Below are positions 2,299-37,146 of a stretch of 64,000 nt of DNA, piece after piece. A program made the position numbers and the translations under genes. The stretch spans positions 99,902 through 163,901 of the forward strand of contig JBDRJV010000037.1 of the NCBI GenBank assembly GCA_043814605.1. Reading direction: 5' to 3'. A model generated the notes under the pieces. That model was not told the DNA's origin. It made no database searches and worked only from the letters and a program-made list of their open reading frames with translations. This stretch comes from Candidatus Omnitrophota bacterium (GTDB lineage Bacteria; Omnitrophota; Gorgyraeia; B26-G9). The stretch's first letter is position 1. Each line of letters opens with the position of its first letter.

Positions 2299-2333
2299 AT
2301 GGTAAAGGGAAAAAAGTTGAAGGGAATAATTAA

Positions 2334-3284: not shown

Positions 3285-3305
3285 AAATTCTGGGAGTAAT
3301 ATTTT

Positions 3306-4136
3306 ATGATCAGGAAAATTCGCAGAAAAAGAAAAAAAAGAACATTTATTTTTAATGCTAAAACTGTAAAAGAAACAGTTAAAAAAAACCGGGGTAATAT
3401 AGTGTTAATTTTAGTGATTATTGGGCTATTAGTATTTTTAGGTTTTAGCCTGAATTCTTTTCTTTTTGCTTCGGAATATTTTAATATCAGTGAAATTGAA
3501 GTAATTGACCAAGATGCAGAGAAAATTGATTACCCGTTAGCTCGGATTAAAGATAATCCTAATATTTTTAAAGTGGATCTGGTGGAAATTGCCAAGGGTA
3601 TAGAGCGAGAACATGCGGATATCCAAAAAGCGATTGTAAAAAGAATTTTACCGAATAAATTGATTATTGAGGTACTCAGGCGCAGATCTATTGCCCAAGC
3701 TGCTGTAAAAATTAGTAAACAGGAAAATAGCGAGTATTATTTTTATTTGATTAATAATGATGGCTATATTTTGGCTAATATGGAAAAACGGCCGAAAAAA
3801 GATATTCCAATTATTATCGGTAGTGAACTAAATATTGATAATATTCAAATCGGACACCGTTATGAAACTCCGGCTTTAAAGTGGGCAATTTCTTTTATTG
3901 AAGAACTAAAAAAAATAAACTTTACGGATCAATATAAAGTAACTAAAGTTGATGTAACGCAACCTAGAAGTATGTCTTTTTATATTAAAAATAGGCTTGA
4001 AATCAGAATTGGTAACAGGGATTGGCGGAAAAAAATTGAAAATCTAGTGGGGATTATGCAAAATTTAGATATTGATTATTCAGAAGATTATTATATTGAT
4101 TTGCGGTTTAAAGATTTTGTTTTCGGAAAAAAATAA
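3306..4136 (+). CDS. ftsQ: cell division protein FtsQ/DivIB-like (N-terminal TM + POTRA)
   Basis: Basic N-terminus and a single TM helix. Sits between ddl and ftsA, the canonical ftsQ position. Confidence 0.65.
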   Translation: MIRKIRRKRKKRTFIFNAKTVKETVKKNRGNIVLILVIIGLLVFLGFSLNSFLFASEYFNISEIEVIDQDAEKIDYPLARIKDNPNIFKVDLVEIAKGIEREHADIQKAIVKRILPNKLIIEVLRRRSIAQAAVKISKQENSEYYFYLINNDGYILANMEKRPKKDIPIIIGSELNIDNIQIGHRYETPALKWAISFIEELKKINFTDQYKVTKVDVTQPRSMSFYIKNRLEIRIGNRDWRKKIENLVGIMQNLDIDYSEDYYIDLRFKDFVFGKK

Positions 4137-5425
4137 TGACGAAATATAACTTTCCAGTTACAGGATTAGATATTGGCAGCGCTAAGACTACAATTTGTGT
4201 GGGTAATTATGACCACTTAAATCAGGTAGAAATTTATGCTGCGGCCATGGTTAAAACACATGGTATGGATCGAGGCATAGTTACTAATCCCGGAGAAGTA
4301 GCTCGTTGTATAGAAGAGGTAGTTAAAAAAGTTGAACAAAAACTAAAAGTTAAGTTCTCCTCTGGGCCAAAATCTTATCAAGGAAAAAAAATCCTAAAAA
4401 TTAATGAGGTTTATACCACTGTAAACGGAGAACATATTTTAGGTAATAATAGTAAAGGCATGCTTAATTTATCAAATAGGCCAGTTGAAATAACCCGTAA
4501 AGATACTCAAATGGCGATTGATTCTGTAAAATTTTTGACAACCACAATTGACCGGGAAATATTACATGCTTTGGCTCAAGAATATATTATTGATGGATAC
4601 AAAAGAATAAAAGATCCCATTGGTAGTTATGGCTCAAGGTTAGGAGTTAACTTGCATATTCTCAGTGCTCAGACATCATTTATGAAGAGTGTGATTAAGG
4701 TTATAAATCGGGCGGGGTTAGATGTTGAAGACTGTGTTTTTTCCGGTTTAGCGACAAGTATGTCTACTTTAACAGAAAGCGATAAACAATTAGGGATAAT
4801 TTTAGTTGAAGTGGGGGCGGGCAGCATAAATATTCTTTTCTTTAAAGACGGCAGATTACAACATACCAGTGTAATTTCATTTGGTGGCAATGATATTACC
4901 GAAAAAATCATGGAGAAATTTAGCATTGATTTTGCACAGGCAGAGCAGCTAAAAATGCAATATAAGAGCAGTAATAACCATTGCTTAATTAAAGACGATC
5001 AATTGGATAAAATTATTATTAAGAAAAGTGCAACAGTTTATGAAAGTATAACCCATAAACAATTAACTTCAGTGATTGATCAGCAGATAGAAAAAATGCT
5101 AGAACTCTTAAAGAAAGATTTAGAATTAGGGGGAATTATTGCCCGGGCAAATTGTGGAATAGTAATTTGCGGGGGAATTTCCTTTATGGATGGGATAATT
5201 GAAAAAGTTGAAAACTATCTAGGAATACCGGTTAACTTAGGTATTTTAAGAGGTTTTGTGAGTAGTTTTTCTGGACTAAGCAACATGTTTTATGCTACAG
5301 GAATTGGTTTAGTCAAATATGCTTTAGAGCAGAACAGTCAACCTCTTGCCCACAATTCATTGGGTAATGGTTTTATGAATAGGCTGGTTTCCCGGGCAAA
5401 ATCCGTTTACGACGAATATTTTTAA
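4136..5425 (+). CDS. ftsA: cell division protein FtsA (actin-like ATPase)
   Basis: N-terminal GLDIGSAKT actin-fold phosphate-1 motif. 429 aa, immediately after ftsQ. Confidence 0.8.
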   Translation: MTKYNFPVTGLDIGSAKTTICVGNYDHLNQVEIYAAAMVKTHGMDRGIVTNPGEVARCIEEVVKKVEQKLKVKFSSGPKSYQGKKILKINEVYTTVNGEHILGNNSKGMLNLSNRPVEITRKDTQMAIDSVKFLTTTIDREILHALAQEYIIDGYKRIKDPIGSYGSRLGVNLHILSAQTSFMKSVIKVINRAGLDVEDCVFSGLATSMSTLTESDKQLGIILVEVGAGSINILFFKDGRLQHTSVISFGGNDITEKIMEKFSIDFAQAEQLKMQYKSSNNHCLIKDDQLDKIIIKKSATVYESITHKQLTSVIDQQIEKMLELLKKDLELGGIIARANCGIVICGGISFMDGIIEKVENYLGIPVNLGILRGFVSSFSGLSNMFYATGIGLVKYALEQNSQPLAHNSLGNGFMNRLVSRAKSVYDEYF

Positions 5426-5444
5426 AAATCAGGTTAATGACTAA

Positions 5445-6410
5445 ATGAAAGATAGTGTAAATATTCTGGTTATTGATGATGAAGTTAGTATTCTGGATTC
5501 ATTCTCGCAACTGTTTACACAAGAAGGGTATAAGATTGTTCGCGCTAAAAGCTGGTTTGAAGCAGCACAACTTCTAACGATGCAGAGCTTTAATATAGTT
5601 ATTGCTGATGTACGGTTGCCAGATATTGGGTATAAACAGATGCTGGAAAAAATTAGAGAAGAAAATAAATATTCATTTATTATTTCGACTGCGGGATTTT
5701 CAGATATTGAAATTGCAATGGAATCTGTTTCTCAAGGTGCGAATGATTATTTTAGTAAACCGTTTGATCCATCTGATATAAAGATAACAATTCGTAAAAT
5801 TATTGAAAAGCAGCGCTTACATGCAGATAATGTGCAATTATTTGATACAATAAAAATACTGGCTTTGGCATTAGATGCACGAGATCATTATACACACGGA
5901 CATTCAGAACAGGTGACTGAATATGCAGTATCTATAGCCCAGGAAATGGGTTTAAGTGTTCAGGAGATCGATCGGATTAGAGATGCAGGCATTTTACATG
6001 ATATTGGAAAAATTGGCATTCCGGATGCAGTTTTATTAAAACCCGGACCATTAAATGATGAAGAATATGCGTTAATTAAAAAACATCCTTCAATCGGGAG
6101 AAAAATCCTTGAACCGGTTAATTGTTTAGCAGATAAGGTGCCGCTTATTTATCATCATCATGAACATTTTGATGGCCAGGGATATCCGGAAGGATTGAAG
6201 GCAGAATCAATACCGGTTGGCGCAAGAATTTTGGCTATTGCTGATGCTTATCAGGCCATGACTTCAGATCGTCCTTACCGGAAGGCATTATCAATAGAAG
6301 TTGCTGTAGATGAGTTAATCAAAAATAAAAACAAACAATTTGATGGTCGTATCGTTGATGTTTTCCTGAATATATTAAAAAGAACAGGGAAATTAGATTT
6401 TCTAAAATAA
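5445..6410 (+). CDS. response regulator, REC + HD-GYP phosphodiesterase (RpfG-like)
   Basis: REC domain with DD...D...K pattern. C-terminal HD motif (HDIGKIGIP) and HHHEHFDGQGYPEG, an HD-GYP signature. Confidence 0.8.
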   Translation: MKDSVNILVIDDEVSILDSFSQLFTQEGYKIVRAKSWFEAAQLLTMQSFNIVIADVRLPDIGYKQMLEKIREENKYSFIISTAGFSDIEIAMESVSQGANDYFSKPFDPSDIKITIRKIIEKQRLHADNVQLFDTIKILALALDARDHYTHGHSEQVTEYAVSIAQEMGLSVQEIDRIRDAGILHDIGKIGIPDAVLLKPGPLNDEEYALIKKHPSIGRKILEPVNCLADKVPLIYHHHEHFDGQGYPEGLKAESIPVGARILAIADAYQAMTSDRPYRKALSIEVAVDELIKNKNKQFDGRIVDVFLNILKRTGKLDFLK

Positions 6411-6528
6411 AAAAAGGGATTGATCATATTAATTTATACTGACTTACACAGCTTACTAATCATTTGCAGATTAATCTGCGTAAGAAGTATTTAATCAATT
6501 TAATTGTATTTAAAAAAAAGGAGAAGAA

Positions 6529-7626
6529 ATGGAACTTGATATTATTGAAATACTAAGGACTATGGTTAAACTCGGCGCTTCGGATGCTCATTTTAAAGTA
6601 GGAAGGGCCCCTATATTCCGAATTAAAAAAGAACTGACCAGTTCATCTTTCCCAATTATGAATAATAAGGACATTGAAAAAATTGCCTACTTTATGATGC
6701 GGGAGCGTCACCGCAAAGAATTTGAAAAGAAAAATGAAATTGATTTTTCTTATCAATTGCCGGAAATCGGCAGATTCAGGGTTAATGTTTTCCGGCAACG
6801 GGGTGATATCGGTATGGTGATGCGGATTGTAAAAAATCAAGTCCCCAGTTTTGAAGCCTTAACTTTACCTCCGATATTTAAGAAAATCGCGATGTTTGAA
6901 CGAGGTATAGTTTTAATTACCGGGGCGAGTTCTCAAGGTAAATCAACAACGCTAGCGGCAATTATCGATTATATTAACAAAAATAAAAAGTGTCATATCA
7001 TGACGATAGAAGATCCCATAGAGTATATTCATGAAGACCAGCAGGCCTTAATTAATCAAAGAGAAGTTGGCTTAGATACAGAGTCTTTTCATTTAGCTTT
7101 GCGTTACGTAATTCGCCAGGATCCAGATATAATTTTAATCGGAGAAATGCGTGATGCAGAAACATTTCAGACTGCATTATCCGCAGCTGAAACCGGGCAT
7201 CTTGTTTTTGCTACATTACATGCTTCGGATACTTCGCAAGTAGTGGATAGAATATTAGATTTTTTCCCAACGGCACAACATGATATGATTAGAATGCAAT
7301 TAGCTTTTAATTTACGTGCGGTGAGTTCTCAACGTCTCATGCCACGAGTCGATGGGACAGGTGTGGTGCCGGCGATTGAAGTAATGATTATTAACCCCAC
7401 AATTATGAAGTTGATCCGGGAAAATAAAACGGACAGATTATCCAGCACTTTACAAGCCTTTACCAAAGAAGGTATGATCACATTTAATCAATCTTTAGTT
7501 AATCATGTCAAAGCTAATCTGGTGAGTTTAGAAACAGCTTTAGCCAATTCTAGTAATCCGGAAGCGTTGAAAATGAACCTTAAAGGTATTTATTTAGATG
7601 AGGATCGTAGAATTTTAGGTGAATAA
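6529..7626 (+). CDS. pilT: type IV pilus retraction ATPase PilT
   Basis: PilT N-terminal block and Walker A GASSQGKSTT. 365 aa. Confidence 0.85.
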   Translation: MELDIIEILRTMVKLGASDAHFKVGRAPIFRIKKELTSSSFPIMNNKDIEKIAYFMMRERHRKEFEKKNEIDFSYQLPEIGRFRVNVFRQRGDIGMVMRIVKNQVPSFEALTLPPIFKKIAMFERGIVLITGASSQGKSTTLAAIIDYINKNKKCHIMTIEDPIEYIHEDQQALINQREVGLDTESFHLALRYVIRQDPDIILIGEMRDAETFQTALSAAETGHLVFATLHASDTSQVVDRILDFFPTAQHDMIRMQLAFNLRAVSSQRLMPRVDGTGVVPAIEVMIINPTIMKLIRENKTDRLSSTLQAFTKEGMITFNQSLVNHVKANLVSLETALANSSNPEALKMNLKGIYLDEDRRILGE

Positions 7627-27608: not shown

Positions 27609-28445
27609 TTACTCTGAGATATTCCTGTCCAGACTACGGTATTGGATTGCCTCGGATATATGATCGGGGGAAATATTTTCCATGCCGGACAAATCAGCAA
27701 TAGTCCTGGCCACCTTTAAAATCTTATCATATGCTCTGGCGGATAACCCCAGCTCATCAATGGCCATTTTTAAAAGGTTTTTTGATTCGTTATCAATATT
27801 ACAATACTTTTTAATTTGCTTATGAGACATATAAGCATTGGCAAAAATGTCGTCTTTTTTAAAACGCTTAAACTGAATCGTTCGTGTTTGATTAACACGT
27901 TTTCTGATTTGTTCTGAAGATTCAGTTATTGGCTCATCAATGAGTTGTTTATAATTGATCGGGGGCACTTCGATATGAATGTCAATCCTGTCTAATAATG
28001 GCCCGGATATTTTCGCACGGTATTGCTCAATACGGTAGGGCGTACACCGGCAAACTTTTGTCGGATGAGTAAAAAACCCGCACGGACAAGGATTCATAGC
28101 ACAAACCAGCATAAAACGGGCTGGAAAACTAACCGTTCGCGCGGCACGGGAAACAGTAACAAATCCGTCTTCCAATGGCTGCCTTAAGGCTTCCAGTACA
28201 TTACGGTTAAACTCAGGCAGTTCATCTAAAAAAAGAATTCCATGATGTGCTAAACTAACTTCTCCGGGCCGAGGATTTGAGCCGCCGCCAACTAACGCAA
28301 TATCACTGGTTGTATGGTGCGGAGCACGAAAAGGCCGGGTTCCGATTAGAGCCTGATTGGCTTTAAGTAATCCGTTAATACTATAAATTTTTGTGGTTTC
28401 CAGTGATTCATCCAAACTAAGCGCAGGAATAACTGTTGGGATTCT
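27609..28445 (-). pseudogene. comM: comM/yifB Mg-chelatase-like competence protein, C-terminal fragment (gene disrupted by insertion)
   Basis: Homology to ComM resumes at RIPTVIPALSLDE...HHTTSD. The fragment carries no Walker A. The N-terminal half lies 8 kb away at 36446-37146. Confidence 0.8.
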
Positions 28446-30058
28446 TTGTTTAACTCGTAATGATTTGATGATTCTATTTCTTTCTGATATTCTGCTAAAC
28501 ATAGTAAATCAAAATCTCCCTTTAGTTCTATGTCCCAACCTGTTGTTTCATTATAACCTAACACGATTTCATTGACAATAAGTCTTATGAGCTTATCTTT
28601 TTCCTCTTTAGAATTGAAATTATCTAAATTCTTACTCATTGCAATCAGTATCTTTTCTAATTCTTTAATTTTCAAAGAGAAATGTTGTTTATCTGATAGT
28701 CTAGTTTTTAAAATTTTAGTTTGCTTTTCAAATTCTAATTTCTTAACCCTATGTTCCTCTGAAAGTTCGTCTAACATTTTTTCACTAAATTTTCCAGAAG
28801 CATATTGGGTAAGTAGTCTTTTGATAGCATTATCACAAAAATTAATTTCCTTTTCCAATGATAAAATTTTGGTTTCTATTTCTAATTTATTAACAAAGCT
28901 GTTGTTTTCATGATGTGAAATAGCTGATTTGAGAGTATCTTTAGACTTCATCAATTGGCAAATAACAAACCAAACCTTATTAAATAGTAAATCCGCATTT
29001 ATTGGGGGTAAATCACATTTTTTGTTATCAGGGTGGTATTTAAACTCTTTTCTAATATATCGGTTATAACAAGCATAGCTTTTATGCCAATAGGATTTCT
29101 CGCCATATTTTTTCCTGTCAATCCAAGATATTCTGCCAATAACATGCTTACCACATCTGGAACATGTTAAAAGATTTTTTAATGGTATGAACTTATTGGG
29201 GATACTTCTTCTGTGTGTTGCTCTTCTGTTTTCTTTAAGCTTTCTCAAAAGTAAGTCCCTTTTTTGTTTTGTGATTAAAGAGGGAATAGAGACACCTGTA
29301 ATGCCATTTTTATCGTTATCTTTGCCAAGGTAGAAGGGATTATGGAATATTCCTAAAAGTGTATGGTTTTGCCAATGTAATATTCGTTTTCTTTGGAAAT
29401 TTTGACCCTCTCTAGCTGTGGGGATTCCTATCCTGTTTAGCTCCAAACAAATATCTCTTGCAGATTTACCTTCTAAATACCAATCAACCATTTTGTGATA
29501 TATTTTTGCCTTTTCCTCGTCTATCTCAAAACATCTACGTTTTCCTTTAGTAACTGTTTTATATCCATAAGGTAACATATGTCCTGTGAAATAGCCTTCT
29601 TTTTTGAGATTTCGCTTTGCTTTTACTCTTCTTTCAATATCCTCAGAAGTTTGTTTGCCTGTGACTGTTGAGTATATCCCTAACATCATTTTGTCGCTAC
29701 CATTTTCTAAATCATAAATTTTATTGCCAACAATTAGCTGGGTTATCTTTTTACCATAAAGCAAATGTTGAATAAATTCACCTCTTACAAATTCATTCCT
29801 ACTTAATCTTTCCATATTCCAATACGCTGGAATATCTCCCTCTTGTAGAGAGTCTAAAATATCAAGTAAATCAGGTCTATCTTTTAAAAATTTGGGCTCT
29901 GTGCTGGATTGAGTATATTTTTTGATAACAATTTCATAATTCCTAAAAGCTGGGATACTTTTTGCAAAGCTTATGATGTCATTCTCTTGAACTTCTATCC
30001 CTTGACCTTGTTCTTGTGGTTTGCTACTTATTCTAGTAACAGCAAATATTTTAGCCAT
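28346..30058 (-). CDS. large serine recombinase (integrase)
   Basis: N-terminal resolvase-type catalytic domain, then a recombinase domain, a zinc ribbon (CSRCGKHV) and a coiled coil. 570 aa. Strong RBS AAGGAGG. The last 33 codons lie left of the junction, in comM-derived DNA. Confidence 0.85.
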   Translation of the reverse strand: MAKIFAVTRISSKPQEQGQGIEVQENDIISFAKSIPAFRNYEIVIKKYTQSSTEPKFLKDRPDLLDILDSLQEGDIPAYWNMERLSRNEFVRGEFIQHLLYGKKITQLIVGNKIYDLENGSDKMMLGIYSTVTGKQTSEDIERRVKAKRNLKKEGYFTGHMLPYGYKTVTKGKRRCFEIDEEKAKIYHKMVDWYLEGKSARDICLELNRIGIPTAREGQNFQRKRILHWQNHTLLGIFHNPFYLGKDNDKNGITGVSIPSLITKQKRDLLLRKLKENRRATHRRSIPNKFIPLKNLLTCSRCGKHVIGRISWIDRKKYGEKSYWHKSYACYNRYIRKEFKYHPDNKKCDLPPINADLLFNKVWFVICQLMKSKDTLKSAISHHENNSFVNKLEIETKILSLEKEINFCDNAIKRLLTQYASGKFSEKMLDELSEEHRVKKLEFEKQTKILKTRLSDKQHFSLKIKELEKILIAMSKNLDNFNSKEEKDKLIRLIVNEIVLGYNETTGWDIELKGDFDLLCLAEYQKEIESSNHYELNKESQQLFLRLVWMNHWKPQKFIVLTDYLKPIRL

Positions 30059-30297
30059 TTAATACCTCCTTTTTAAACATAATGCTGAGAGGGGAGAGAT
30101 AAAGAGAGGGGAGAGTGACAAAGAATAATCGATTATATATCCGATGATAATATCCCACATAGTGATATCCTCTTACATCAGGTTACTAATACTTGATAAT
30201 CAGCCATTAGAGCTATGTTATTCAAATAGATAGGACAAAGTATATCCTTAAAACTAAAAACGCGATACTACCTTGATACAGCTTTAATTCTAGTAAT

Positions 30298-30705
30298 TTA
30301 ATCTTTATCTGTTGACTGTTTTGAATTAGATTTGAAAAATAGGCTTAAAAAGTCATGCATTCTAGACTTCCAACCATTTTTATTTAATGTGTTCACATCT
30401 TCAGCGGAATATTTATATAAACTATCTTCAGATGAGTATGCGGATATTAACCTCTGAGAATTATATTTACCCTTATACAGAGCCAAAAACGGAAACTCGT
30501 GTAACCATTTCAATGTTTTAGCAGATTGAGCAGTCTGGATATGAGTTTTGCTGAAGCTTTCTTCATTTAAATACCACTCTAGGACATCTTTAACATTCAA
30601 AAGTTTCTCTCTTTTTTTTTGTAAGGGTATAACACGCTTTAATTGCTCATCAATCTCGAAGATTTCCTGTTCTAATTTAACCAAAGATATGTTATTCAAA
30701 AGCAT
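30298..30705 (-). CDS. hypothetical protein (135 aa)
   Basis: ORF in an operon with two upstream small ORFs. No recognisable motifs. Confidence 0.4.
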   Translation of the reverse strand: MLLNNISLVKLEQEIFEIDEQLKRVIPLQKKREKLLNVKDVLEWYLNEESFSKTHIQTAQSAKTLKWLHEFPFLALYKGKYNSQRLISAYSSEDSLYKYSAEDVNTLNKNGWKSRMHDFLSLFFKSNSKQSTDKD

Positions 30706-30707
30706 AG

Positions 30708-31094
30708 TTACATCTCCATTTTTTCTATTTTTTTAATCGCAATTAACGATTTGTGATAATCTTTAATGCCTTTACGTTCATAACGTAGATGATTAGGTAA
30801 TGCTGAATCATCCATTTGAGCCACCATACGATTTACTTTATCGGTGTATTGATTGAGGTCGTTTTTTTGTCTCTCATAAGTTTTCTTATGATACTCTTTG
30901 CCTGTTTGGTCTTCGGTTTCAATATCCTTGATTGCACGAGCTTCCTCATTGACTACTGAAATTCTAATATCTTTGCCAAATTTATTCTCAAGCATTTCCT
31001 TAATCTTACTTTCAAAGTTACTATCAAGAACTTTCCTATCAGAAGTTTGCATGCCTAGAGTTACTATAAACTGAACTTCTTTTACTGGAATCAT
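30708..31094 (-). CDS. hypothetical protein (128 aa), highly charged
   Basis: ORF with an ATGA overlap to the upstream 59-aa ORF. No recognisable motifs. Confidence 0.4.
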   Translation of the reverse strand: MIPVKEVQFIVTLGMQTSDRKVLDSNFESKIKEMLENKFGKDIRISVVNEEARAIKDIETEDQTGKEYHKKTYERQKNDLNQYTDKVNRMVAQMDDSALPNHLRYERKGIKDYHKSLIAIKKIEKMEM

Positions 31095-31270
31095 TTTGTA
31101 TTTTCACCCCCTTTTATGTGTTTTTCCAACCACTTAACATAACTTACCCACTCATAAGCAAGAAGCTTCTCATATTCTTTTTTTCTGTAAAATTCTCTTG
31201 CTTCCGTAAATGAGGGAAGTTTTTTATAAAATTCTCTTTCAAGTTTATTTTTTAATTTTAACTTTCTCAT
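31091..31270 (-). CDS. small ORF (59 aa) missing from the ORF track, first gene of a 3-gene operon
   Basis: Hand translation gives MRKLKLKNKLEREFYKKLPSFTEAREFYRKKEYEKLLAYEWVSYVKWLEKHIKGGENTK. Its stop overlaps the next ATG. Confidence 0.3.
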   Translation of the reverse strand: MRKLKLKNKLEREFYKKLPSFTEAREFYRKKEYEKLLAYEWVSYVKWLEKHIKGGENTK

Positions 31271-31293
31271 TTATTATCTTTCCATTTTATGTT

Positions 31294-31417
31294 GGATAGT
31301 ATAGAAGTAGTCCTGGGGAGGACAGAGTCAAGTGTTAGAACTCTGAAGTTTCATAACCTCTATACTATCCATGGTGAGGATTAATCGGGTGAAAAGCCCG
31401 ACAATCGCAGTGTCCTC
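31294..31417 (-). ncRNA. structured non-coding region (nested inverted repeats). Candidate ncRNA or recombination/origin site
   Basis: A 12-13-bp perfect inverted repeat GGATAGTATAGA(A)G / CTCTATACTATCC encloses two hairpins (TCCT-GGGG-AGGA and CAGAGT...ACTCTG). A second domain TGAGGA...TCCTCA encloses CGGG-TGAAAAG-CCCG. The strand is not determined. Confidence 0.3.
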
Positions 31418-31641
31418 AGTATATATCAAAAAATTTTTATGCTTTACTTTTAACATTTATTCCTCTGAAAACTAAAAACGTATTTATCTCAATGCTTACT
31501 GTATGCTTTGGTGGACTAGACTACAAAAAAGGTTAGTACCCCCCTATATTAATCAACATACAACCTCTGACAAAAAAATGGTCGATTGTTTCAATGCCAT
31601 ACTTTTTCTCATTTACTTTCATTACTCATTTACTCCTCAAG

Positions 31642-32220
31642 TCAGCAGACTGGGGAAATACTAGACAACTCCAAGCTACCTTTTTTCTCAGCTCTTTTAA
31701 GAGCATGGTATTGGAGATAGGGAAGAGGGGAGCGTTTCTTTATATCTTTCTTTCCCTTTGGTCTTCCTAACTTTTTTCCATTTAACTTAGCTCGTTTAAT
31801 GCCGTCCTTTGTTCTTTCTACTATAAGGTCTCTTTCAAATTGAGCCATAGCTCCGAGTATATGGAAAAACAACTTTCCATTAGCTGAACCAGTATCAATG
31901 TTTTCTCGTAAAGTGATAAGCTCTACTTTGTATTTATCGAAAAGCTCTAACAGACCAATAAGCTGTTTTAGACTTCGTGCTAATCGAGATAGTCTTTTTA
32001 TGACAACTTTTTCTATTTGACCTAATCTGATTCGTTCTATTAAATCGTGTAGTACAGGTCTTTTAGTGATGAATCCACTAGCAGTTTCTAAAAACATTCT
32101 GCACTTATTATGTGGGATTTGATGAGATTCTATATAGTCACGAAATATTAATTGCTGGTTTTCATTAGTTTGCTCGTCAGTAGAAACTCTGCTATAAAAT
32201 GCGATAAATTTATTATCCAT
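31642..32220 (-). CDS. small serine recombinase (resolvase/invertase family)
   Basis: Catalytic motif FYSRVSTDEQ, a conserved RLSRLARS block and a C-terminal GRPKGKK basic tail. Confidence 0.85.
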   Translation of the reverse strand: MDNKFIAFYSRVSTDEQTNENQQLIFRDYIESHQIPHNKCRMFLETASGFITKRPVLHDLIERIRLGQIEKVVIKRLSRLARSLKQLIGLLELFDKYKVELITLRENIDTGSANGKLFFHILGAMAQFERDLIVERTKDGIKRAKLNGKKLGRPKGKKDIKKRSPLPYLQYHALKRAEKKGSLELSSISPVC

Positions 32221-32303
32221 GTCTTAACCCTCCTTTTAATTTTAAAATATGATTTTTCCTAATCCAAGTAAAGAACTTTGTCTTACTGAAGGCAAAAAAG
32301 TTT

Positions 32304-32819
32304 TTAATTGTAGAGGGAAATCTGGGATTCATGTTTTTTCTTGTTTTTCCTCGGAAATCTATTTGTTCTTTGTGCTTTGATATACTTAAAGTAATTCTTT
32401 GAACGAGGTCTGCCAATTACTTTAGTTGTTTTCGATAATCCTATTATTGTTCTGTTTGCTGAAATATCATGCCTACAAATGTCTAAGCACTTAGCTATTT
32501 TCACTACTGAATATTCCTTTAATGTGTCTATATCATCATCAATAGAAATCAATCTAGCTTTGTACTTTGAAACCAAAATTAAAAATCTTGTTAAATTCTT
32601 AATCGGAAAACCCAATACTGAAAGTCGGGGAACTACTACAATTTTTATTTCCCCAGTCCTGATGCTACTGAATATTTCGTTTAATGTTTTATGGTCAGCA
32701 GGGGAGGCTTCTGAATAAAACACACATTGGGATATTGTAATCTGTTTTTCGGATAGGAACCTCTCCAATGATGAATTGCCCTTGTCATAGCAATAGCAAG
32801 CAACATTTTGCACTAACAT
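32304..32819 (-). CDS. resolvase-like paralog with degenerate catalytic motif (likely inactive)
   Basis: Aligns with the neighbouring resolvase (IKIVVVPRLSVLGF vs IEKVVIKRLSRLAR; IGRPRSK vs LGRPKGKK). The nucleophile region reads CYCYDKGNSS instead of YSRVSTDEQ. Confidence 0.55.
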   Translation of the reverse strand: MLVQNVACYCYDKGNSSLERFLSEKQITISQCVFYSEASPADHKTLNEIFSSIRTGEIKIVVVPRLSVLGFPIKNLTRFLILVSKYKARLISIDDDIDTLKEYSVVKIAKCLDICRHDISANRTIIGLSKTTKVIGRPRSKNYFKYIKAQRTNRFPRKNKKKHESQISLYN

Positions 32820-33249
32820 TACTTTGACACCTTCTTTCTTCCATTGGTCTTTGATTTATATATAAAATTACTCAGAGTTGACATCATAGCCTTTTATTAG
32901 TCCTCAATATTGGTTTTCTCTTTGCAAATGGGGGAAAGGTTACGAACTAACCAATTCGCAATATCTATCTGCCTCTTTTGCCTGTCATCAAGAGGGAGAT
33001 TCTTTAATCTTACATTTATTTCAGTATCATTTTTTCTTTTCATCATTACCAACAACAATATATATAATAATCCCTACTATTACGGTTTTTAAAGTTCCCT
33101 CAGTTAAGATAATATATCTACTAATGCTAAAATTAAGGTTTTTTTAAAACTTTTTTAAAATTTTCTCTGTTCACTATAAATAACGCCTATTAGAGCTTAA
33201 CCCTAATAAAATTTAAGGGTAAAGTTTAGTTTTTTGTTTTGTGTTATAA

Positions 33250-33831
33250 TTAAATACTCTTTGGAACAAATACACCTAAATCTGTTAACTCTTTAATTAT
33301 CTCGAACTCGGATTTAAATGTCTTATCGCTTAATTTTCTTCTCTGTTCAGAACTATACATATCCCTTAGGCATCTATTTACTATTGCCCAATAGGAACTA
33401 TTGAGGAGGGGATTAGCCCGTTTCTCATATACAATCTGATTTATTTCAACATCTTCAATTTTTACATTACATAGTTTAAGGATTAGTTTCTGATAACTTT
33501 TTTTCCAATGATAATAAGCCCAACGCTTAAGCTTTTTGGGATGAACGTAAAAATACTTTGGACAGCTTTGTATAACAACTCTACTGCGAGGAACTTTTCC
33601 AGTGAGTGTTTTATTACGTCTAATGCAATCTAACTCTTTCCAAAGCTGTTCTATACGAATATCTGAATCTTTTAGTGTAATCAGAGAAACTACTCTGGAT
33701 TTCTTCTTTGCATAGCGTTTGTGATATCCCAATGTGTTTCTCACTCTGCCATTACTCTTAGCATTTTGATTGCCAAAGTAATTGGCATTTTTCCTTTTAA
33801 CTGAATCCTTTTTTCCCTTTGGTCGTCCCAT
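33250..33831 (-). CDS. hypothetical basic protein (193 aa) beginning MGRPKGKKD...
   Basis: The N-terminus nearly duplicates the GRPKGKKDIKKR tail of the adjacent resolvase. No other motifs. Confidence 0.45.
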   Translation of the reverse strand: MGRPKGKKDSVKRKNANYFGNQNAKSNGRVRNTLGYHKRYAKKKSRVVSLITLKDSDIRIEQLWKELDCIRRNKTLTGKVPRSRVVIQSCPKYFYVHPKKLKRWAYYHWKKSYQKLILKLCNVKIEDVEINQIVYEKRANPLLNSSYWAIVNRCLRDMYSSEQRRKLSDKTFKSEFEIIKELTDLGVFVPKSI

Positions 33832-34062
33832 GGTTCCTCCTTATTATGCTCTTACCTATATTAACTATTTAAGTCGCTTATTTTGAACTTTTTTTTCCTA
33901 TTATGTTTCAATGGGTTACAGAAATTATTAAAAATAAAAAAATGGCTAAAATGCTATTTTTCCTATAAGTCTTTATTTTGCAGTAATTTATAGTTTTTAA
34001 AAATCAATAAAGTTGTTTCTTGTTGTTTAACAAGAAGTTACGTAAATAAATGATAATTTACA

Positions 34063-34100
34063 CAAAAAAAACCCCTCGGCTCTTTTGAACCGAAGGATTA
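34063..34100 (-). terminator. rho-independent terminator (minus strand) after the 190-aa gene
   Basis: Minus strand reads CCTTCGG-loop-CCGAGGG followed by TTTTTTTT. Confidence 0.4.
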
Positions 34101-34198
34101 AACCGTCAGTAGACGCTTGCCCTCAACAGCAATATCTTATCTTTAAATAAAGTTCACCTTGAAGAAAGCATAAAGTTAAATTTGTTGCATTTAACGTT

Positions 34199-34771
34199 TT
34201 AACTTTTAAGTTGTTTAAAATAATTATAAAAACCGGAACAGATATCGGGAAATATGAAAAATATAAAATAAATAATCACCAATAATCCTATAAAGGCAAG
34301 ACCATAAAGTATCCTTGTTACCCACTTATTAGGAGGAGTATAGAGCCGTAGTGGCAATTCTTTAGCAATTCCTTGGTCGTAAGTAATTGCAGTATATATT
34401 TGCTTGGGGATATAACTGATTTTATTTTCTAAATAAGCGATAGTAATGAATTCTTCGGGAGCGATTGAATTTATTTTTATTATTTTGTTAGGTGTATCAA
34501 TGGTAATTTTATTGGCAATATGTGGGGAGTAGTTAATTTGTAATGGAAAAAAGTTATGACAAATATTTATATTAGTAGCTTGAGTTTTCCCCCGATTAAC
34601 TAGATGTAAGCTATGTTGCCAAAGATTAACTGATTGATTAGGCGCTGGAAGTTGAACATTGAATCCCCGAATTTCTTCAATGTTAAATAATACTTTTGGT
34701 CTGGTATGTGAATATTTCTCATAAAAGAATCTAATTGCGTATCCAAAAACAACCAGTATAAAATCTTTCAT
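34199..34771 (-). CDS. hypothetical protein with C-terminal TM helix (190 aa)
   Basis: ORF with a C-terminal hydrophobic segment LAFIGLLVIIYFIFFIF. Confidence 0.4.
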   Translation of the reverse strand: MKDFILVVFGYAIRFFYEKYSHTRPKVLFNIEEIRGFNVQLPAPNQSVNLWQHSLHLVNRGKTQATNINICHNFFPLQINYSPHIANKITIDTPNKIIKINSIAPEEFITIAYLENKISYIPKQIYTAITYDQGIAKELPLRLYTPPNKWVTRILYGLAFIGLLVIIYFIFFIFPDICSGFYNYFKQLKS

Positions 34772-34977
34772 TAGAATAGCTCCTTCCTTACATTAGCCAC
34801 GCTAAGACCGCAATCATAGCAAAAGTTATAATAACACATATAATCTCCCATTTGCCAAGAGGTTTCTCTTCTCAGGAGGGGGTAGGTGCATAGAATAAGT
34901 TTACAAGTATGTTTACTATTTTTATTGCTCTTCTTTTTTCCTCAGAGTTTTAATTGCCTAATTTATAAACCTAAGGA

Positions 34978-35493
34978 TTAACTGTCAGGATATATTTTAT
35001 GTTTAAGTATTTCTATTGTAACTTCATTAAGTATTTTTTTAACTTCTTTAAGGTTTTCTTTAAACTTTTTAGATGCTTCTATTCGAGTTGTTGTCTCAAA
35101 TTGTCCTGAATTTTCTACCTTTTCTAACACTAAGTCTATATTAAACTTTATGTTGCCATTTTGTTTTTCTGATATTTTTATTGATGAGGGGTTAAACATA
35201 TAATTATGGGCAAAAGCGTTTCGTATTCGAGCAATTTCAAAAAATTTATGCCTTGTTTTCGCATTAATTCCATAACTTATATTTGAACATATATTAAAAA
35301 AAACCTTTATCTTATCCGCTAAACTTACTATTGACGAATTTAATACTATATCTCTAACAAATTTTCCTTTGCCTTTTTGGGGAGTAATATAGTGAGTAAT
35401 AATTTGTTTTATATTAGCATCTATAAGATTAGTTTGGTCAATAACAAATGCTAGGTCATTATAGTCTTTTTGAAAAGAACTTTTGTTTTTCAC
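34978..35493 (-). CDS. HEPN-domain protein (R-N-x3-H motif), candidate RNase toxin / abortive-infection effector
   Basis: EIARIRNAFAHN contains the canonical HEPN Rx4-6H motif. The surrounding residues are predicted all-alpha. Overlaps the upstream small membrane ORF by 4 nt. Confidence 0.6.
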   Translation of the reverse strand: MKNKSSFQKDYNDLAFVIDQTNLIDANIKQIITHYITPQKGKGKFVRDIVLNSSIVSLADKIKVFFNICSNISYGINAKTRHKFFEIARIRNAFAHNYMFNPSSIKISEKQNGNIKFNIDLVLEKVENSGQFETTTRIEASKKFKENLKEVKKILNEVTIEILKHKIYPDS

Positions 35494-35777
35494 TTCTTAT
35501 CCATTCTATCCTCGAGTTCAGAGACTTCATTTTCGAGTTCGCTTACTTTGTGTTTTAGCACATTTATTTCACCTCGAAGACTTCCATCTTTGTTTTGAAA
35601 TTCTTCCTGACTTTCTTCAATCTTTTGTATAATCCATTTTTTTATGCCTTCCCATATAGCCACAATGAATATTCCTATTAAACAGTAAAACCAAAATTCT
35701 CGTACCCAGTGAGGCAAGTTAAATATAAAGTCCAATACATACAATATTAGTATACCTATTATAAAAGCTCCAAACAT
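35490..35777 (-). CDS. small membrane protein (2 TM) with C-terminal coiled coil
   Basis: Hydrophobic N-terminal half. The C-terminus is heptad-like (VSELENEVSELEDRMDKK). RBS GGAGGTT. Confidence 0.5.
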   Translation of the reverse strand: MFGAFIIGILILYVLDFIFNLPHWVREFWFYCLIGIFIVAIWEGIKKWIIQKIEESQEEFQNKDGSLRGEINVLKHKVSELENEVSELEDRMDKK

Positions 35778-35789
35778 TATAAAACCTCC

Positions 35790-35871
35790 GAAATTTACAT
35801 GGCTTTATTATATGCTACTAAAAAGTATAAAGTCAATTTTATCTACAATGTTGTATTGAGAGAATAAAAGG
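35790..35871 (-). promoter_or_regulatory. promoter/5'UTR cassette copy A (TTGACT-18-TATAAT plus conserved upstream box)
   Basis: Near-identical to the cassette at 36360-36447. Shared blocks are TATTATATGCTACTA, ATAAAG.CAATTTT and AATGTTGT.TTG.G.GAATAAAAGG. Confidence 0.45.
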
Positions 35872-35891
35872 CATAGTTAAGTTGTTATGGG

Positions 35892-36359
35892 TTATATTTT
35901 TTTCCAAATACACTCAGAAGATTCAATTTTTTGAGTATCTCTGTCAAACCAAGTAGCTTGACCTTTCATGCTCAATCTATCAGGGGTAACCATTAATTGA
36001 ATCATTCCAGTTCCACAAATATTTCCTTGTTCACCTTTTTTAATATATGAACCATTTACCATATCATGTTCTATTTTACAAGTATAAGTAAAAATTCTAT
36101 GGTCGTCCTGAGTTTCCCCAGTGCCCTTAACTGTGTCTGCAAACTGTTTTAATTGAACAATCTCCAGTGTCTCGTTCCATTTAGAGGGGTCTAAATCTGA
36201 AGGCTCTTTGAAGGTATGTTCCCATTTGCCAGTAAGATTAAATTTATTTGGATTTAGCAAGTGGAATAATGTAGCAATTGTAGAATCCATAAAATTTCTG
36301 AAAGGTGGGAAAATATAGTTTGTTAATAACCCTAACAGCAATCCTAAAGCAAAATTCAT
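35892..36359 (-). CDS. hypothetical protein with N-terminal TM helix (155 aa)
   Basis: MNFALGLLLGLLTNYIF hydrophobic start, then a Cys-containing soluble domain. RBS GGAGGTT. Confidence 0.45.
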   Translation of the reverse strand: MNFALGLLLGLLTNYIFPPFRNFMDSTIATLFHLLNPNKFNLTGKWEHTFKEPSDLDPSKWNETLEIVQLKQFADTVKGTGETQDDHRIFTYTCKIEHDMVNGSYIKKGEQGNICGTGMIQLMVTPDRLSMKGQATWFDRDTQKIESSECIWKKI

Positions 36360-36447
36360 ATTAACCTCCTAACTTACTCAATATTATATGCTACTATTAT
36401 GAATAAAGCCAATTTTTTCCATAATGTTGTGTTGGGTGAATAAAAGG
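36360..36447 (-). promoter_or_regulatory. promoter/5'UTR cassette copy B, ending at the element's right boundary
   Basis: TTGGCT-18-TATAAT. The upstream box CCTTTTATTCACCCAACACAACATT abuts the GGGATTCT core. Confidence 0.45.
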
Positions 36448-37146
36448 GATTCTACGTGCGAGCATTGTTTTGCCTGAACCTGGAGGGCCGATGAGTAAAA
36501 TATTATGATTCCCTGCAACCGCGACCTCTAAGGCACGTTTGGCAAATTCCTGGCCCTTGACATCAGACATATCTGTTGTATAGTGAGCAAATTTCTTTAA
36601 TTCAATATCAGGATTTGCTTTTTGTGGGGCGATATCAATTTCCTGATTGAGAAAAGCCACTGCCTGGGTTAAAGAATCAATGGGATATACAGAAGAATTA
36701 CTCACAACAGCAGCTTCTTGAGCATTTTCACTGGCAACTAAAATATTTTTATGCTGGTCTCTGATTCCTAAGACCATAGAGAGAATACCTTTAATTGGCT
36801 TGATTGTCCCATCTAAAGATAATTCTCCCATAATCAAAAAATCATTTAACCGGCTTTTATTCAATATGGAGCTTGCCGCAAGAATTCCTAAAGCAATCGG
36901 TAAATCATAAGCAGATCCCTGCTTCTTCGTATCTGCCGGGGCCAGATTTATAGTTATTTTTTTTACCGGAAAATTAAATCCAGAGTTTTTTATAGCTGAA
37001 CGGACTCTATCTTTAGATTCTTTTACCGCGTTATCCGGCAATCCTACAACGGATATTTGCGGTAAGCCGCGTCCAATATCCACTTCAATTTCCAGTAAAT
37101 GACCTTGGATTCCGGAAACAAAAGCGCTGAAAATTTTTGCTAACAT
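36446..37146 (-). pseudogene. comM: comM/yifB N-terminal fragment (Walker A GPPGSGKT), truncated by the insertion
   Basis: [24 protein letters not shown]...[15 protein letters not shown], then homology ends at the core. After the core the frame reads [15 protein letters not shown] and stops at 36397. Confidence 0.8.

What the first reader, a model, noticed from the sequence alone, without database searches (positions are those of the whole stretch)
31294..31417. Densely structured non-coding segment with nested inverted repeats between resolvase and small-ORF operon
A perfect 12-13-bp inverted repeat (GGATAGTATAGAAG ... CTCTATACTATCC) encloses two internal hairpins. It is immediately followed by a second stem (TGAGGA...TCCTCA) containing a CGGG/CCCG hairpin. 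The ~550-bp gap around it is otherwise ORF-free. It could be a structured ncRNA, a res/inversion site for the adjacent small serine recombinase, or an oriT/sso-like origin. No reverse transcriptase is nearby, so a retron is unlikely.
Basis: seen in the sequence. Interest (0 to 1): 0.6.

Follow-up and report, generated by a model that had tools for sequence, protein, structure and literature searches.

The report
Structured RNA-like element in recombinase island
A 125-base stretch that folds into an unusually stable branched hairpin sits inside a small mobile island of an Omnitrophota genome, and three distant relatives of the island carry a differently spelled but similarly shaped element at the same place, so it is probably an undescribed structured RNA of unknown role.

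Summary
Window 31293-31418 holds a 79-nt three-way junction and an adjacent 44-nt hairpin. The junction is closed by a 16-bp helix, of which 13 bp are perfect. Fold z is -5.4 on the minus strand, which is the gene-sense strand, and -3.7 on the plus strand. The element shares the highest G+C value (45%) of a 31% G+C island.

The island is about 8 kb. It is inserted in comM by a large serine recombinase, in a Candidatus Omnitrophota MAG. No Rfam family matches. No second copy was found in the viral or metagenome scans. The one genome-collection scan was protein-based and does not hold this MAG.

Three distant syntenic islands (L004, L008, L010; proteins 25-38% identical) each carry a strongly structured multi-branch element with a long closing helix. 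Fold z is -4.0 to -5.6. Each lies in the same interval, between the small resolvase and the p128-like/p135-like/LSR block. The gene-sense strand is the more stable one in 4 of 4 islands. Four similar resolvases outside the family have nothing comparable downstream.

Best reading (confidence 0.45): a sense-strand structured RNA domain in the leader of the p59-p128-p135 operon, acting in cis or as a processed stable RNA. The res/inversion-site, oriT/sso, retron and terminator readings are not supported. Covariation could not be tested, and the function is inferred.

The parts
31293..31371 (-). 79-nt three-way junction. It consists of closing helix P1 (16 bp), an 11-nt junction, hairpin A, hairpin B, 1 nt, and P1'.
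   Evidence: MFE -30.5 kcal/mol with centroid equal to MFE. z is -5.38 on the minus strand and -3.70 on the plus strand. Searches give the same structure.
31356..31371 (-). P1 5' arm (minus-strand RNA UGGAUAGUAUAGAGGU)
   Evidence: Inverted repeat I2, 16 nt, 94% complementary. 13 bp are perfect. Position 13 is G.U on the minus strand and A-C on the plus strand.
31293..31308 (-). P1 3' arm (ACUUCUAUACUAUCCA). It ends 23 nt before the p59 start codon.
31345..31355 (-). Unpaired junction UAUGAAACUUC
   Evidence: Structure
31324..31344 (-). Hairpin A (AGAGU.C / G.ACUCU, 8-nt loop)
31310..31323 (-). Hairpin B (GUCCU-CCCC-AGGAC), which carries a C-rich CCUCC-containing loop
31375..31418 (-). Hairpin 1. 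The outer stem is UGAGGA/UCCUCA, followed by an internal loop. The inner stem is GUCGGG/CCCGAU, with a G.U pair at its base on the minus strand.
   Evidence: In one search, the 43-nt core 31375-31417 gives z -2.7 (minus) and -2.9 (plus).
31546..31573 (-). Predicted sigma-70-like promoter TTGTCA-16-TAATAT upstream of the element. Its -10 region lies in the 10-mer TTAATATAGG, which is shared with the p193 leader.
   Evidence: In one search the 10-mer occurs only twice in 64 kb, at 31543-31552 and 33855-33864, both on the minus strand. This is inference, not a mapped promoter.
31563..31594 (-). Conserved junction downstream of the resolvase (TTGAAACAATCGACCATTTTTTTGTCAGAGGT). It is homologous to L004 2337-2369 and L010 3133-3152.
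   Evidence: No shuffle reached the observed score for L010 (0 of 300) and 1 of 300 did for L004.
31091..31270 (-). p59, the first ORF of the p59-p128-p135 operon. Its SD GGAAAG is at 31278-31283.
   Evidence: Its stop overlaps the p128 start (ATGA).
30708..31094 (-). p128, a conserved island protein. Relatives are in L008, L010 and L004.
30298..30705 (-). p135, a conserved island protein placed just upstream of the LSR in all four islands
31642..32220 (-). Small serine recombinase (192 aa). It has the catalytic domain only and no recognisable HTH.
   Evidence: Pfam PF00239 at 4.6e-38 is the only hit.
28346..30058 (-). Large serine recombinase at the island end, overlapping the comM C-terminal part

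Best explanation
The element is a structured RNA domain made on the minus strand, which is the gene-sense strand. It consists of a 44-nt hairpin (31418-31375) followed by a 79-nt three-way junction (31371-31293). The junction's 16-bp closing helix ends 23 nt before the start codon of p59.

It lies in the untranslated leader, or intercistronic stretch, between the small resolvase gene and the p59-p128-p135 operon. That operon precedes the large serine recombinase of an 8-kb island inserted in comM.

The proposed mechanism is post-transcriptional. The very stable closing helix makes a compact, nuclease-defined module. It would either be cut out as a stable small RNA or act in cis as a processing and stability determinant that sets expression of the downstream mobility genes.

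Shown:
- the fold and its statistical excess;
- the strand bias;
- the position;
- the recurrence of an analogous fold at the syntenic position in three distant relatives.

Inferred:
- that it is transcribed;
- the promoter;
- any processing;
- the regulatory effect.
For: 1. The fold is well defined and far more stable than shuffles. It shares the highest G+C value of the island and is among the most over-structured windows of the 64 kb.

2. The sense strand is favoured. Two helices are extended by G.U pairs that would be A-C mismatches on the other strand.

3. The three known relatives of the island each have one strongly over-structured multi-branch element with a long closing helix. In each it lies between the small resolvase and the p128-like/p135-like/LSR block.
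- L004 2864-2949: z -5.55
- L008 5222-5336: z -4.04
- L010 3344-3474: z -5.15

The sense strand is more stable in 4 of 4 islands. In L004 the difference is 12.6 kcal/mol.

4. In L010, as in the window, the closing helix ends 23 nt before the next small ORF, which precedes the p128-like gene.

5. Negative control: four similar HTH-less resolvases outside the family (L007, L017, L018, L019) have no window with z below -2.3 within about 800 nt downstream.

6. A promoter-like site lies 125 nt upstream on the same strand. It shares a 10-mer with the p193 leader that occurs nowhere else in 64 kb.

7. No U-tract follows any helix, so it is not a terminator.
Against: - No alignable homologue exists, so no covariation test was possible. 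The four elements share architecture and position, not sequence. The local alignment of the window element to L010 has P=0.15, and to L004 and L008 P is above 0.9. A single-sequence covariance model finds nothing.
- There are only four islands, so positional recurrence has limited power.
- The junction topology differs between islands. The long junction strand is on the 5' side in the window and the 3' side in L004, and L010 has a four-way junction.
- In L004, L008 and L010, gene callers place ORFs over the elements. Their coding scores are the lowest and they have no homologues. However, the L008 ORF start overlaps the resolvase stop, and the L004 ORF starts MGRTKK, like the basic N-terminus of p193. 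Coding is therefore not excluded.
- There are no transcription data.
- The Shine-Dalgarno of p59 is at most marginally occluded, so no simple switch is evident.
Confidence: 0.45

Rival explanations
1. It is an immunity or antisense RNA of the phage P4 CI / P1 C4 type. A stable RNA of about 80 nt would be cut from the leader of the island's own operon. Its loops would pair with sequences in the same transcript, for example ribosome-binding sites, to keep the mobility genes silent while the island is integrated.
For: - The size (79 nt) and the shape (closing stem plus two hairpins) resemble CI and C4. This comparison rests on my own knowledge.
- It lies in an operon leader of a possible phage satellite. 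L004 carries a head-maturation-protease-like gene, PHROG 976 at 4e-28.
- Rapid sequence divergence with a retained architecture is what element-specific immunity would produce.
- The hairpin-1 loop UUUUCACCC (31395-31387) is perfectly complementary over 9 nt to the Shine-Dalgarno region of p128 (31109-31101).
- The P4 mechanism is summarised in PMC4825925.
Against: - No match to Rfam C4 or any other family, even at E up to 10 on 151 nt.
- Complementarity between loops and flanks is not better than for shuffled loops in any of the four islands, with all P at or above 0.1.
- The 9-nt match to the p128 SD has a shuffle P of about 0.05 and is not repeated in the relatives.
Confidence: 0.12
2. It is a DNA site, either a res-like or inversion site, or a cruciform-forming accessory site. 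It would be recognised by the adjacent small serine recombinase, or by the p193 protein that shares the recombinase's basic arm motif.
For: - It sits near the small resolvase in all four islands.
- It has a perfect 13-bp inverted repeat.
- The resolvase lacks an HTH, so its site recognition is unusual.
- As single-stranded DNA the region also folds well, with z -4.5.
Against: - It lies about 225 bp downstream of the resolvase gene, not upstream, and does not overlap the gene's promoter.
- The arms are 47 nt apart and enclose hairpins, which does not fit a dimer-binding subsite.
- A 47-53-bp segment is far shorter than any segment known to be inverted by serine invertases. This point rests on my own knowledge.
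- The arm motif has no other copy in the island.
- The arm sequences are not conserved among islands whose resolvases are 36-39% identical.
- The helices depend on G.U pairs on the sense strand in 4 of 4 islands, which DNA duplex recognition would not select for.
- A better candidate for a conserved DNA site exists elsewhere, namely the ACACAAAA(A)GTAT motif.
Confidence: 0.1
3. It has no function. It would be a relic palindrome, a MITE-like insertion, or a by-product of gene loss in the gap downstream of the resolvase. The structures in the relatives would be unrelated coincidences or lie within real coding sequences.
For: - The element is an orphan with no second copy anywhere that was searched.
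- The window gap looks like the product of gene loss. Its 5' part is homologous to the short junction that in L004 directly precedes the next gene, and here only 8 codons follow the equivalent start.
- The arms start with TG and end with CA, like some transposon ends.
- A perfect 13-bp inverted repeat alone is at chance level.
- ORFs are called over the elements in the relatives.
Against: - Fold z is -5.4 with nested G+C-rich helices in a 31% G+C island.
- There is no target-site duplication and no other copy in 64 kb.
- Equally extreme structures recur at the syntenic position in 3 of 3 relatives and are absent downstream of 4 of 4 control resolvases.
- The strand bias is consistent across the islands.
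Confidence: 0.15
4. It is a small RNA gene on the plus strand, antisense to the p59 leader.
For: - The plus strand also folds well, with z -3.6 to -3.7.
- On the plus strand the order of P1, 1 nt, hairpin, hairpin, long junction matches the sense-strand topology of L004.
Against: - No promoter-like site and no terminator were found on the plus strand.
- The plus strand is the less stable one here, and the antisense strand is the less stable one in all three relatives.
Confidence: 0.05
5. It is an origin-type DNA hairpin (oriT, single-strand origin or primosome site) used when the island is mobilised or replicated.
For: It has nested hairpins that also fold as ssDNA, and it lies in a mobile element.
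Against: - No relaxase, Rep, primase or other replication or transfer protein was recognised in the island.
- There are no iterons or an adjacent nick-site-like repeat.
- The G.U-dependent strand bias points to RNA.
Confidence: 0.04

Closest known systems
Phage P4 CI RNA / P1-P7 C4 antisense RNA (Rfam C4 family)
   Same: It is about 80 nt long, with a closing stem around two hairpins. It is encoded in the leader of an operon of a mobile element, on the sense strand. Its sequence is expected to diverge quickly while its shape is kept.
   Different: There is no covariance-model match. No significant complementarity between loops and flanking transcript was found in any of the four islands. Processing has not been shown.
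RNase III-processed intercistronic or leader stem-loops of phage and mobile-element operons (T7 early region, lambda N leader and sib)
   Same: It is a long, near-perfect helix of 16 bp, extendable to 19 bp. It sits between cistrons without a U-tract, in an operon that ends in a recombinase gene.
   Different: Known RNase III sites are mostly single irregular hairpins rather than three- or four-way junctions. Cleavage cannot be tested here. This comparison rests on my own knowledge.
Tn3/gamma-delta res sites and Hin/Gin/Mpi inversion sites of small serine recombinases
   Same: It is next to a small serine recombinase gene and contains an inverted repeat.
   Different: The position is wrong, since it lies downstream of the gene. 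The geometry is wrong, with arms 47 nt apart and hairpins nested between them. There are no repeated half-sites. The arm sequence is not conserved in related islands, and the helices need G.U pairs.
Recombinase-associated structured RNAs (IS110 bridge RNA, IS1111 seekRNA)
   Same: It is a structured non-coding RNA encoded next to a recombinase gene in a mobile element. The fold is conserved while the sequence varies.
   Different: Those RNAs serve DEDD-type recombinases, not serine recombinases. Here no complementarity to the att sites was found, and nothing shows binding.

Membership tests
Any Rfam 15 family | Covariance-model score at or above the family's gathering threshold | tested here: not met
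   There are 0 matches in the 64 kb at gathering thresholds. There is nothing on the element at E up to 10 in 801 nt. In 151 nt the only hit is a chance mir-3170 match of 12.7 bits against a threshold of 98.
P4 CI / P1 C4 antisense RNA | Match to the C4 model | tested here: not met
P4 CI / P1 C4 antisense RNA | Loops complementary to target sequences in the same transcript | tested here: inconclusive
   There is one 9-nt perfect match to the p128 SD, with shuffle P about 0.05. No loop in any of the four islands is better than shuffled controls.
P4 CI / P1 C4 antisense RNA | Processing to a discrete stable RNA (RNase P dependent) | not testable with these tools
   No transcript data are available.
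Retron msr-msd | Adjacent reverse transcriptase gene | tested here: not met
   No RT domain was found in the island proteins scanned against Pfam, PHROGs, PADLOC or NCBIfam, which is all except the shortest ORFs.
Resolvase res site (Tn3/gamma-delta type) | Located upstream of, and overlapping the promoter of, the resolvase gene. It has several subsites, each made of two short inverted half-sites at dimer spacing. | tested here: not met
   It lies about 225 bp downstream of the gene. It has a single pair of arms 47 nt apart. No further copy of the arm motif exists within 2 mismatches, apart from chance matches.
Invertible DNA segment (Hin/Gin/Mpi type) | Inverted repeats flanking a segment that carries a promoter or gene part, with both orientations found in a population | tested here: inconclusive
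   Inverted repeats are present, but the segment is only 47-53 bp and has no sigma-70-like promoter. Population reads are not available, so orientation could not be examined.
Riboswitch | Match to a known aptamer class, and an expression platform (terminator or SD-sequestering helix) that competes with P1 | tested here: not met
   There is no Rfam match. There is no U-tract terminator. P1 is 16 bp, and the SD is at most marginally paired.
Intrinsic terminator | G+C-rich hairpin immediately followed by a U-tract | tested here: not met
   There are 0 terminator-like sites in 30900-32400 on either strand.
MITE / insertion-sequence derivative | Terminal inverted repeats, a target-site duplication, and multiple copies in the genome | tested here: inconclusive
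   The arms are TG...CA-type and 16 bp long. There is no flanking duplication and no other copy in 64 kb. The rest of the MAG could not be fetched.
oriT / single-strand origin | A cognate relaxase or Rep protein in the element, and a nick site next to the inverted repeat | tested here: not met
   No such protein was recognised.

The most novel reading that the evidence does not exclude
The element and its three positional counterparts could be a new class of structured RNA that works with serine recombinases. The small resolvases of this island family have only the catalytic domain and a basic tail, with no HTH. The RNA could be a cofactor that supplies site recognition, scaffolding or directionality control for the resolvase or for the large serine recombinase. 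That would be an RNA-assisted serine recombinase system, by loose analogy with the bridge RNAs of IS110.
Probability: 0.05. Interest if true: 0.9.

Novelty: new variant of a known kind. Interest (0 to 1): 0.45.

Why it matters
If the reading is right, a small and almost unsampled family of serine-recombinase islands in Omnitrophota carries a conserved-by-shape RNA module that no RNA database describes. It sits exactly between the two recombinase genes.

At the least, this would add a new leader or processed RNA that controls the mobility genes of an integrative element in a phylum with no genetics. At the most, it would connect structured RNA to serine recombinases, for which no RNA partner is known.

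The practical points are:
- Gene callers appear to have annotated ORFs over these elements in the related contigs.
- The island family itself is a compact, undescribed mobile-element type. It combines an LSR, an HTH-less resolvase, the p193 'arm' protein, and the p128 and p135 proteins.

Tried and rejected
**Rfam.** Three searches, including permissive ones, gave nothing.

**tRNA/tmRNA and tandem repeats.** ARAGORN found nothing. TRF found only A+T-rich low-complexity arrays in the gap and none over the element.

**Searches for a second copy**
- Arm pattern, hairpin pattern and a loop pattern that tolerates stem changes in viral contigs: nothing.
- Loop pattern in metagenome contigs: nothing.
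- blastn against phages and plasmids: only A+T-rich chance hits outside the element.
- blastn and nhmmer against all fetched loci: nothing.
- Single-sequence covariance model R1 against all fetched loci: only itself, plus a chance hit inside a coding ORF of L007.

**Protein routes to relatives**
- p128 has no relative by word search.
- The LSR has two relatives, at 33-40% identity.
- The resolvase has none above 48% identity.
- A full HMMER search with p193 found two relatives.
- Locus scans with the p193 alignment in the genome, metagenome and viral collections added no further usable island.

**Other attempts**
- The window's own MAG is not in the gene-position index, so the rest of the genome could not be searched for copies.
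- AlphaFold models of p135 and p128 had pLDDT of 45 and 53, too poor for fold search.
- Loop-to-transcript complementarity was not significant.
- There was no similarity or complementarity to attL or attR.
- A global alignment of the window gap to L010 suggested about 56-60% identity over the element. A local-alignment shuffle test gave P=0.15, and the aligned bases pair differently, so homology of the element itself was rejected.
- The other intergenic regions of the island and of the relatives do not fold better than shuffles.
- Literature searches found no description of RNA-associated serine recombinases or of these islands.

Full report
**1. What is there**

Window 31293-31418 contains two adjacent structures.

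- The first is a 79-nt unit at 31293-31371. It is closed by an inverted repeat of 16 positions. Thirteen of these are perfect (TGGATAGTATAGA / TCTATACTATCCA), and two more pairs follow one odd position.
- Inside the closing helix are an 11-nt unpaired stretch, a 6-bp hairpin with an 8-nt loop (31324-31344) and a 5-bp hairpin with a four-base loop (31310-31323). That loop reads CCCC on the minus strand and GGGG on the plus strand.
- Three bases away lies a 44-nt hairpin at 31375-31418. Its outer stem is TGAGGA/TCCTCA and its inner stem is CGGG/CCCG.

**2. Is it more than chance**

- A perfect 13-bp inverted repeat within 100 nt is not remarkable in this A+T-rich window. Three are observed, 0.87 are expected, and 44% of shuffles have at least one.
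- The complete fold is remarkable. Fold z is -4.9 (minus strand) and -3.6 (plus) for 170 nt, and -5.4 and -3.7 for the 79-nt unit. None of 200 dinucleotide shuffles is as stable, and the centroid equals the MFE.
- In a scan of all 130-nt windows of the 64 kb, corrected for G+C, the element ranks 2nd on the plus strand. On the minus strand it is the third distinct locus.
- It shares the highest G+C value of its island: 45% against a mean of 31%, SD 4.5%.

**3. Context**

All neighbouring genes are on the minus strand.

- The comM/yifB gene is split. Its N-terminal part is 36397-37146 and its C-terminal part is 27609-28502.
- Between the two parts lies an 8-kb island. The island is bounded by the 8-bp core AGAATCCC at 36446-36453 and 28438-28445.
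- A 570-aa large serine recombinase (LSR, 28346-30058) sits at one end.
- The order on the minus strand is as follows. Four cargo ORFs come first, two of them membrane proteins. An intrinsic terminator at about 34060-34095 follows. Then come p193, a degenerate resolvase (p171, 32304-32819) and an intact small serine recombinase of 192 aa with only the catalytic domain (31642-32220). A 371-bp gap holding the element is next. Then come p59, p128 and p135, which are translationally coupled or abutting, a 239-bp gap, and the LSR.
- The only database hit of p128 names the source as a Candidatus Omnitrophota MAG.

**4. Known families**

- Rfam gives nothing at gathering thresholds in the whole window. 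It also gives nothing on the element at E up to 10 in two narrower searches.
- There is no tRNA or tmRNA and no terminator-like site.
- There is no reverse transcriptase, relaxase or Rep among the island proteins.

**5. Search for homologues**

- The island proteins are almost orphans. p128 has none by word search. The LSR has two relatives at 33-40% identity. The resolvase has none above 48%. p193 has two in a full HMMER search of 1.8 billion representatives.
- Their contigs gave three related islands. They are L004 (identical to L006, another Omnitrophota MAG), L008 and L010.
- Synteny is clear. The order is p193-like, small ORFs, an HTH-less small resolvase, a variable stretch, p128-like, p135-like and the LSR.
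- No sequence or covariance-model match to the window element exists in these or any other fetched locus. Pattern scans of the viral and metagenome collections found none either, nor did blastn against the phage and plasmid collections.
- The 5' part of the window gap (31563-31594) is homologous to the short junction downstream of the resolvase in L004 and L010. The element itself is not alignable, with P=0.15.

**6. The comparative result that matters**

Sliding-window folding of the three relatives put the most over-structured sense-strand windows in the same interval, between the resolvase and the p128-like gene. These windows rank first in L004 and L010 and third in L008, after two sites next to the p193-like gene. 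Folded on their own, each is a multi-branch structure with a long closing helix:

| Element | Length | Shape | Sense strand | Antisense strand |
|---|---|---|---|---|
| Window 31293-31371 | 79 nt | three-way junction, 16-bp closing helix | -30.5 kcal/mol, z -5.38 | -28.2 kcal/mol, z -3.70 |
| L004 2864-2949 | 86 nt | three-way junction, 6+13-bp closing helix | -36.9 kcal/mol, z -5.55 | -24.3 kcal/mol, z -2.92 |
| L008 5222-5336 | 115 nt | three-way junction, 9-bp closing helix (11 bp on the antisense strand) | -46.2 kcal/mol, z -4.04 | -42.4 kcal/mol, z -3.82 |
| L010 3344-3474 | 131 nt | four-way junction, about 13-bp closing helix | -53.4 kcal/mol, z -5.15 | -48.3 kcal/mol, z -4.89 |

- All four islands have an element of the same kind at the same place.
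- In all four the gene-sense strand is the more stable one. This is what G.U pairs in an RNA produce and what a double-stranded DNA site would not select.
- In L010, as in the window, the closing helix ends 23 nt before the start of the small ORF that precedes the p128-like gene.
- As a control, four similar HTH-less resolvases outside this island family (L007, L017, L018, L019) have no window with z below -2.3 within about 800 nt downstream.

Caveats:
- There are only four islands.
- The topologies are not identical.
- The structures were found by folding, so their pairing is not an independent test.
- Gene callers placed ORFs of 160, 155 and 104 aa over the elements in the relatives. These ORFs have no Pfam hit and no similarity to each other, and they have the lowest coding log-odds of their loci. 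They cannot be excluded as genes. The L008 ORF start overlaps the resolvase stop, and part of the L010 ORF resembles the HEPN-like p171 (34978-35493) of the window.

**7. Mechanism**

The element is not a terminator, because no U-tract follows it. It is not a recognisable riboswitch, because it has no known aptamer, P1 is 16 bp, and the Shine-Dalgarno of p59 is at most marginally paired.

A promoter-like site (TTGTCA-16-TAATAT, 31573-31546) lies 125 nt upstream on the same strand. Its -10 region is part of a 10-mer that occurs only twice in the 64 kb. The other copy sits just upstream of the p193 start.

The most economical reading is a sense-strand RNA module in the leader of the p59-p128-p135 operon. 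It would be either a processing and stability determinant or a stable RNA cut out of the leader.

The P4 CI / P1 C4 model is attractive for three reasons: the size, the shape, and the fast sequence divergence that element-specific immunity would produce. The P4 mechanism is summarised in PMC4825925. I tested its key prediction, loops complementary to the same transcript:
- There is one 9-nt perfect match between the hairpin-1 loop and the p128 Shine-Dalgarno region, with shuffle P about 0.05.
- No loop in any of the four islands does better than shuffled controls.

There is also no similarity or complementarity to the attachment sites. This gives no support to a guide-RNA idea.

**8. DNA-site readings**

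A res or inversion site for the small recombinase is unlikely, for these reasons:
- The element lies downstream of the gene.
- It has one pair of arms 47 nt apart with hairpins between them.
- The arm motif occurs nowhere else.
- The arm sequences are not conserved among islands whose resolvases are clearly orthologous.
- The helices rely on sense-strand G.U pairs.

A better candidate for a conserved DNA site in these islands is the motif TTTAAnTAnA-ACACAAAA(A)GTAT. It follows the stop codon of every p193-like gene. Full or partial second copies lie near the structured element or before the LSR.

An oriT or single-strand origin lacks any cognate protein in the island.

**9. Verdict**

The support comes from the fold statistics, the strand bias, and the recurrence of an analogous element at the syntenic position in three distant relatives.

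Function is inferred, not shown. No known family fits. The element is best described as a new, island-specific structured RNA candidate. Its role in serine-recombinase islands needs transcript mapping and a larger family for covariation analysis.

Noticed in passing
window 28438-36453: An 8-kb island is inserted in comM/yifB. The gene is split into 36397-37146 and 27609-28502. An 8-bp core AGAATCCC lies at both junctions (36446-36453 and 28438-28445), and the large serine recombinase gene overlaps the comM C-terminal part.
   Followed up: partly
L004 (=L006) 498-6875; L008 2901-8839; L010 817-4362: A rare island family is seen here only in Omnitrophota MAGs and unassigned metagenome contigs. 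Its conserved order is p193-like, an HTH-less small resolvase, a structured element, p128-like, p135-like and the LSR. Proteins are 25-38% identical to those of the window. The cargo differs: L008 has an Imm_superinfect protein and an RnlA-toxin-like protein.
   Followed up: partly
window 33250-33831(-), 31642-32220(-), 32304-32819(-): The N-terminus of p193 (MGRPKGKKD..KRK...GY.KR) resembles the basic C-terminal tail of the HTH-less small resolvases. tblastn matches it to resolvase ends in L007, L010 and L017-L019. A degenerate resolvase without the catalytic Ser motif (p171, 32304-32819) sits between p193 and the intact resolvase. p193 may be a detached 'arm plus DNA-binding' partner.
   Followed up: partly
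window ~33200-33249(-) and 31597-31607(-); L004 ~1035-1065 and ~4968-5000; L008 ~3475-3495 and ~5345-5365; L010 ~1540-1560 and 3302-3317: The motif TTTAAnTAnA-ACACAAAA(A)GTAT follows the stop codon of every p193-like gene. A second, sometimes partial, direct copy lies near the structured element or before the LSR. The two copies flank the resolvase gene. It is a candidate recombinase or regulator binding site.
   Followed up: partly
window 31543-31552(-) and 33855-33864(-): The 10-mer TTAATATAGG occurs exactly twice in 64 kb, against 0.54 expected. Both copies are on the minus strand in island leader regions, and each contains a TAATAT -10-like hexamer. This suggests a shared promoter or operator.
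   Followed up: partly
window 31387-31395 vs 31101-31109: In the minus-strand RNA, the hairpin-1 loop and 3' stem (UUUUCACCC) are perfectly complementary over 9 nt to the Shine-Dalgarno region of p128 (GGGUGAAAA). The shuffle P is about 0.05.
   Followed up: yes
window 31328-31456(-): A 42-aa ORF with a GAGG Shine-Dalgarno runs through hairpin 1 and half of the three-way junction and stops inside hairpin A. Its coding score is neutral, and it has no family match in NCBIfam or PHROGs.
   Followed up: partly
window 34978-35493(-); L010 3118-3432: The cargo protein p171 carries an RNAFAH (Rx4H, HEPN-like) motif. It resembles the 104-aa ORF that precedes the structured element in L010 (tblastn E 0.002). 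It is possibly an Abi-type RNase.
   Followed up: no
L004 3287-3964: A 225-aa ORF matches phage head-maturation protease families (PHROG 976, 4e-28). The island family may therefore be phage satellites.
   Followed up: no
window ~34060-34095(-): A strong intrinsic terminator (CCTTCGGTTCAAAAGAGCCGAGGGG followed by T8) follows the 190-aa membrane-protein gene. It separates the cargo module from the p193-resolvase-LSR module.
   Followed up: no
window 36726-36880(-): This is the most over-structured 130-nt window on the minus strand of the 64 kb (G+C-corrected z about -4.2). It lies inside the comM N-terminal coding part.
   Followed up: no
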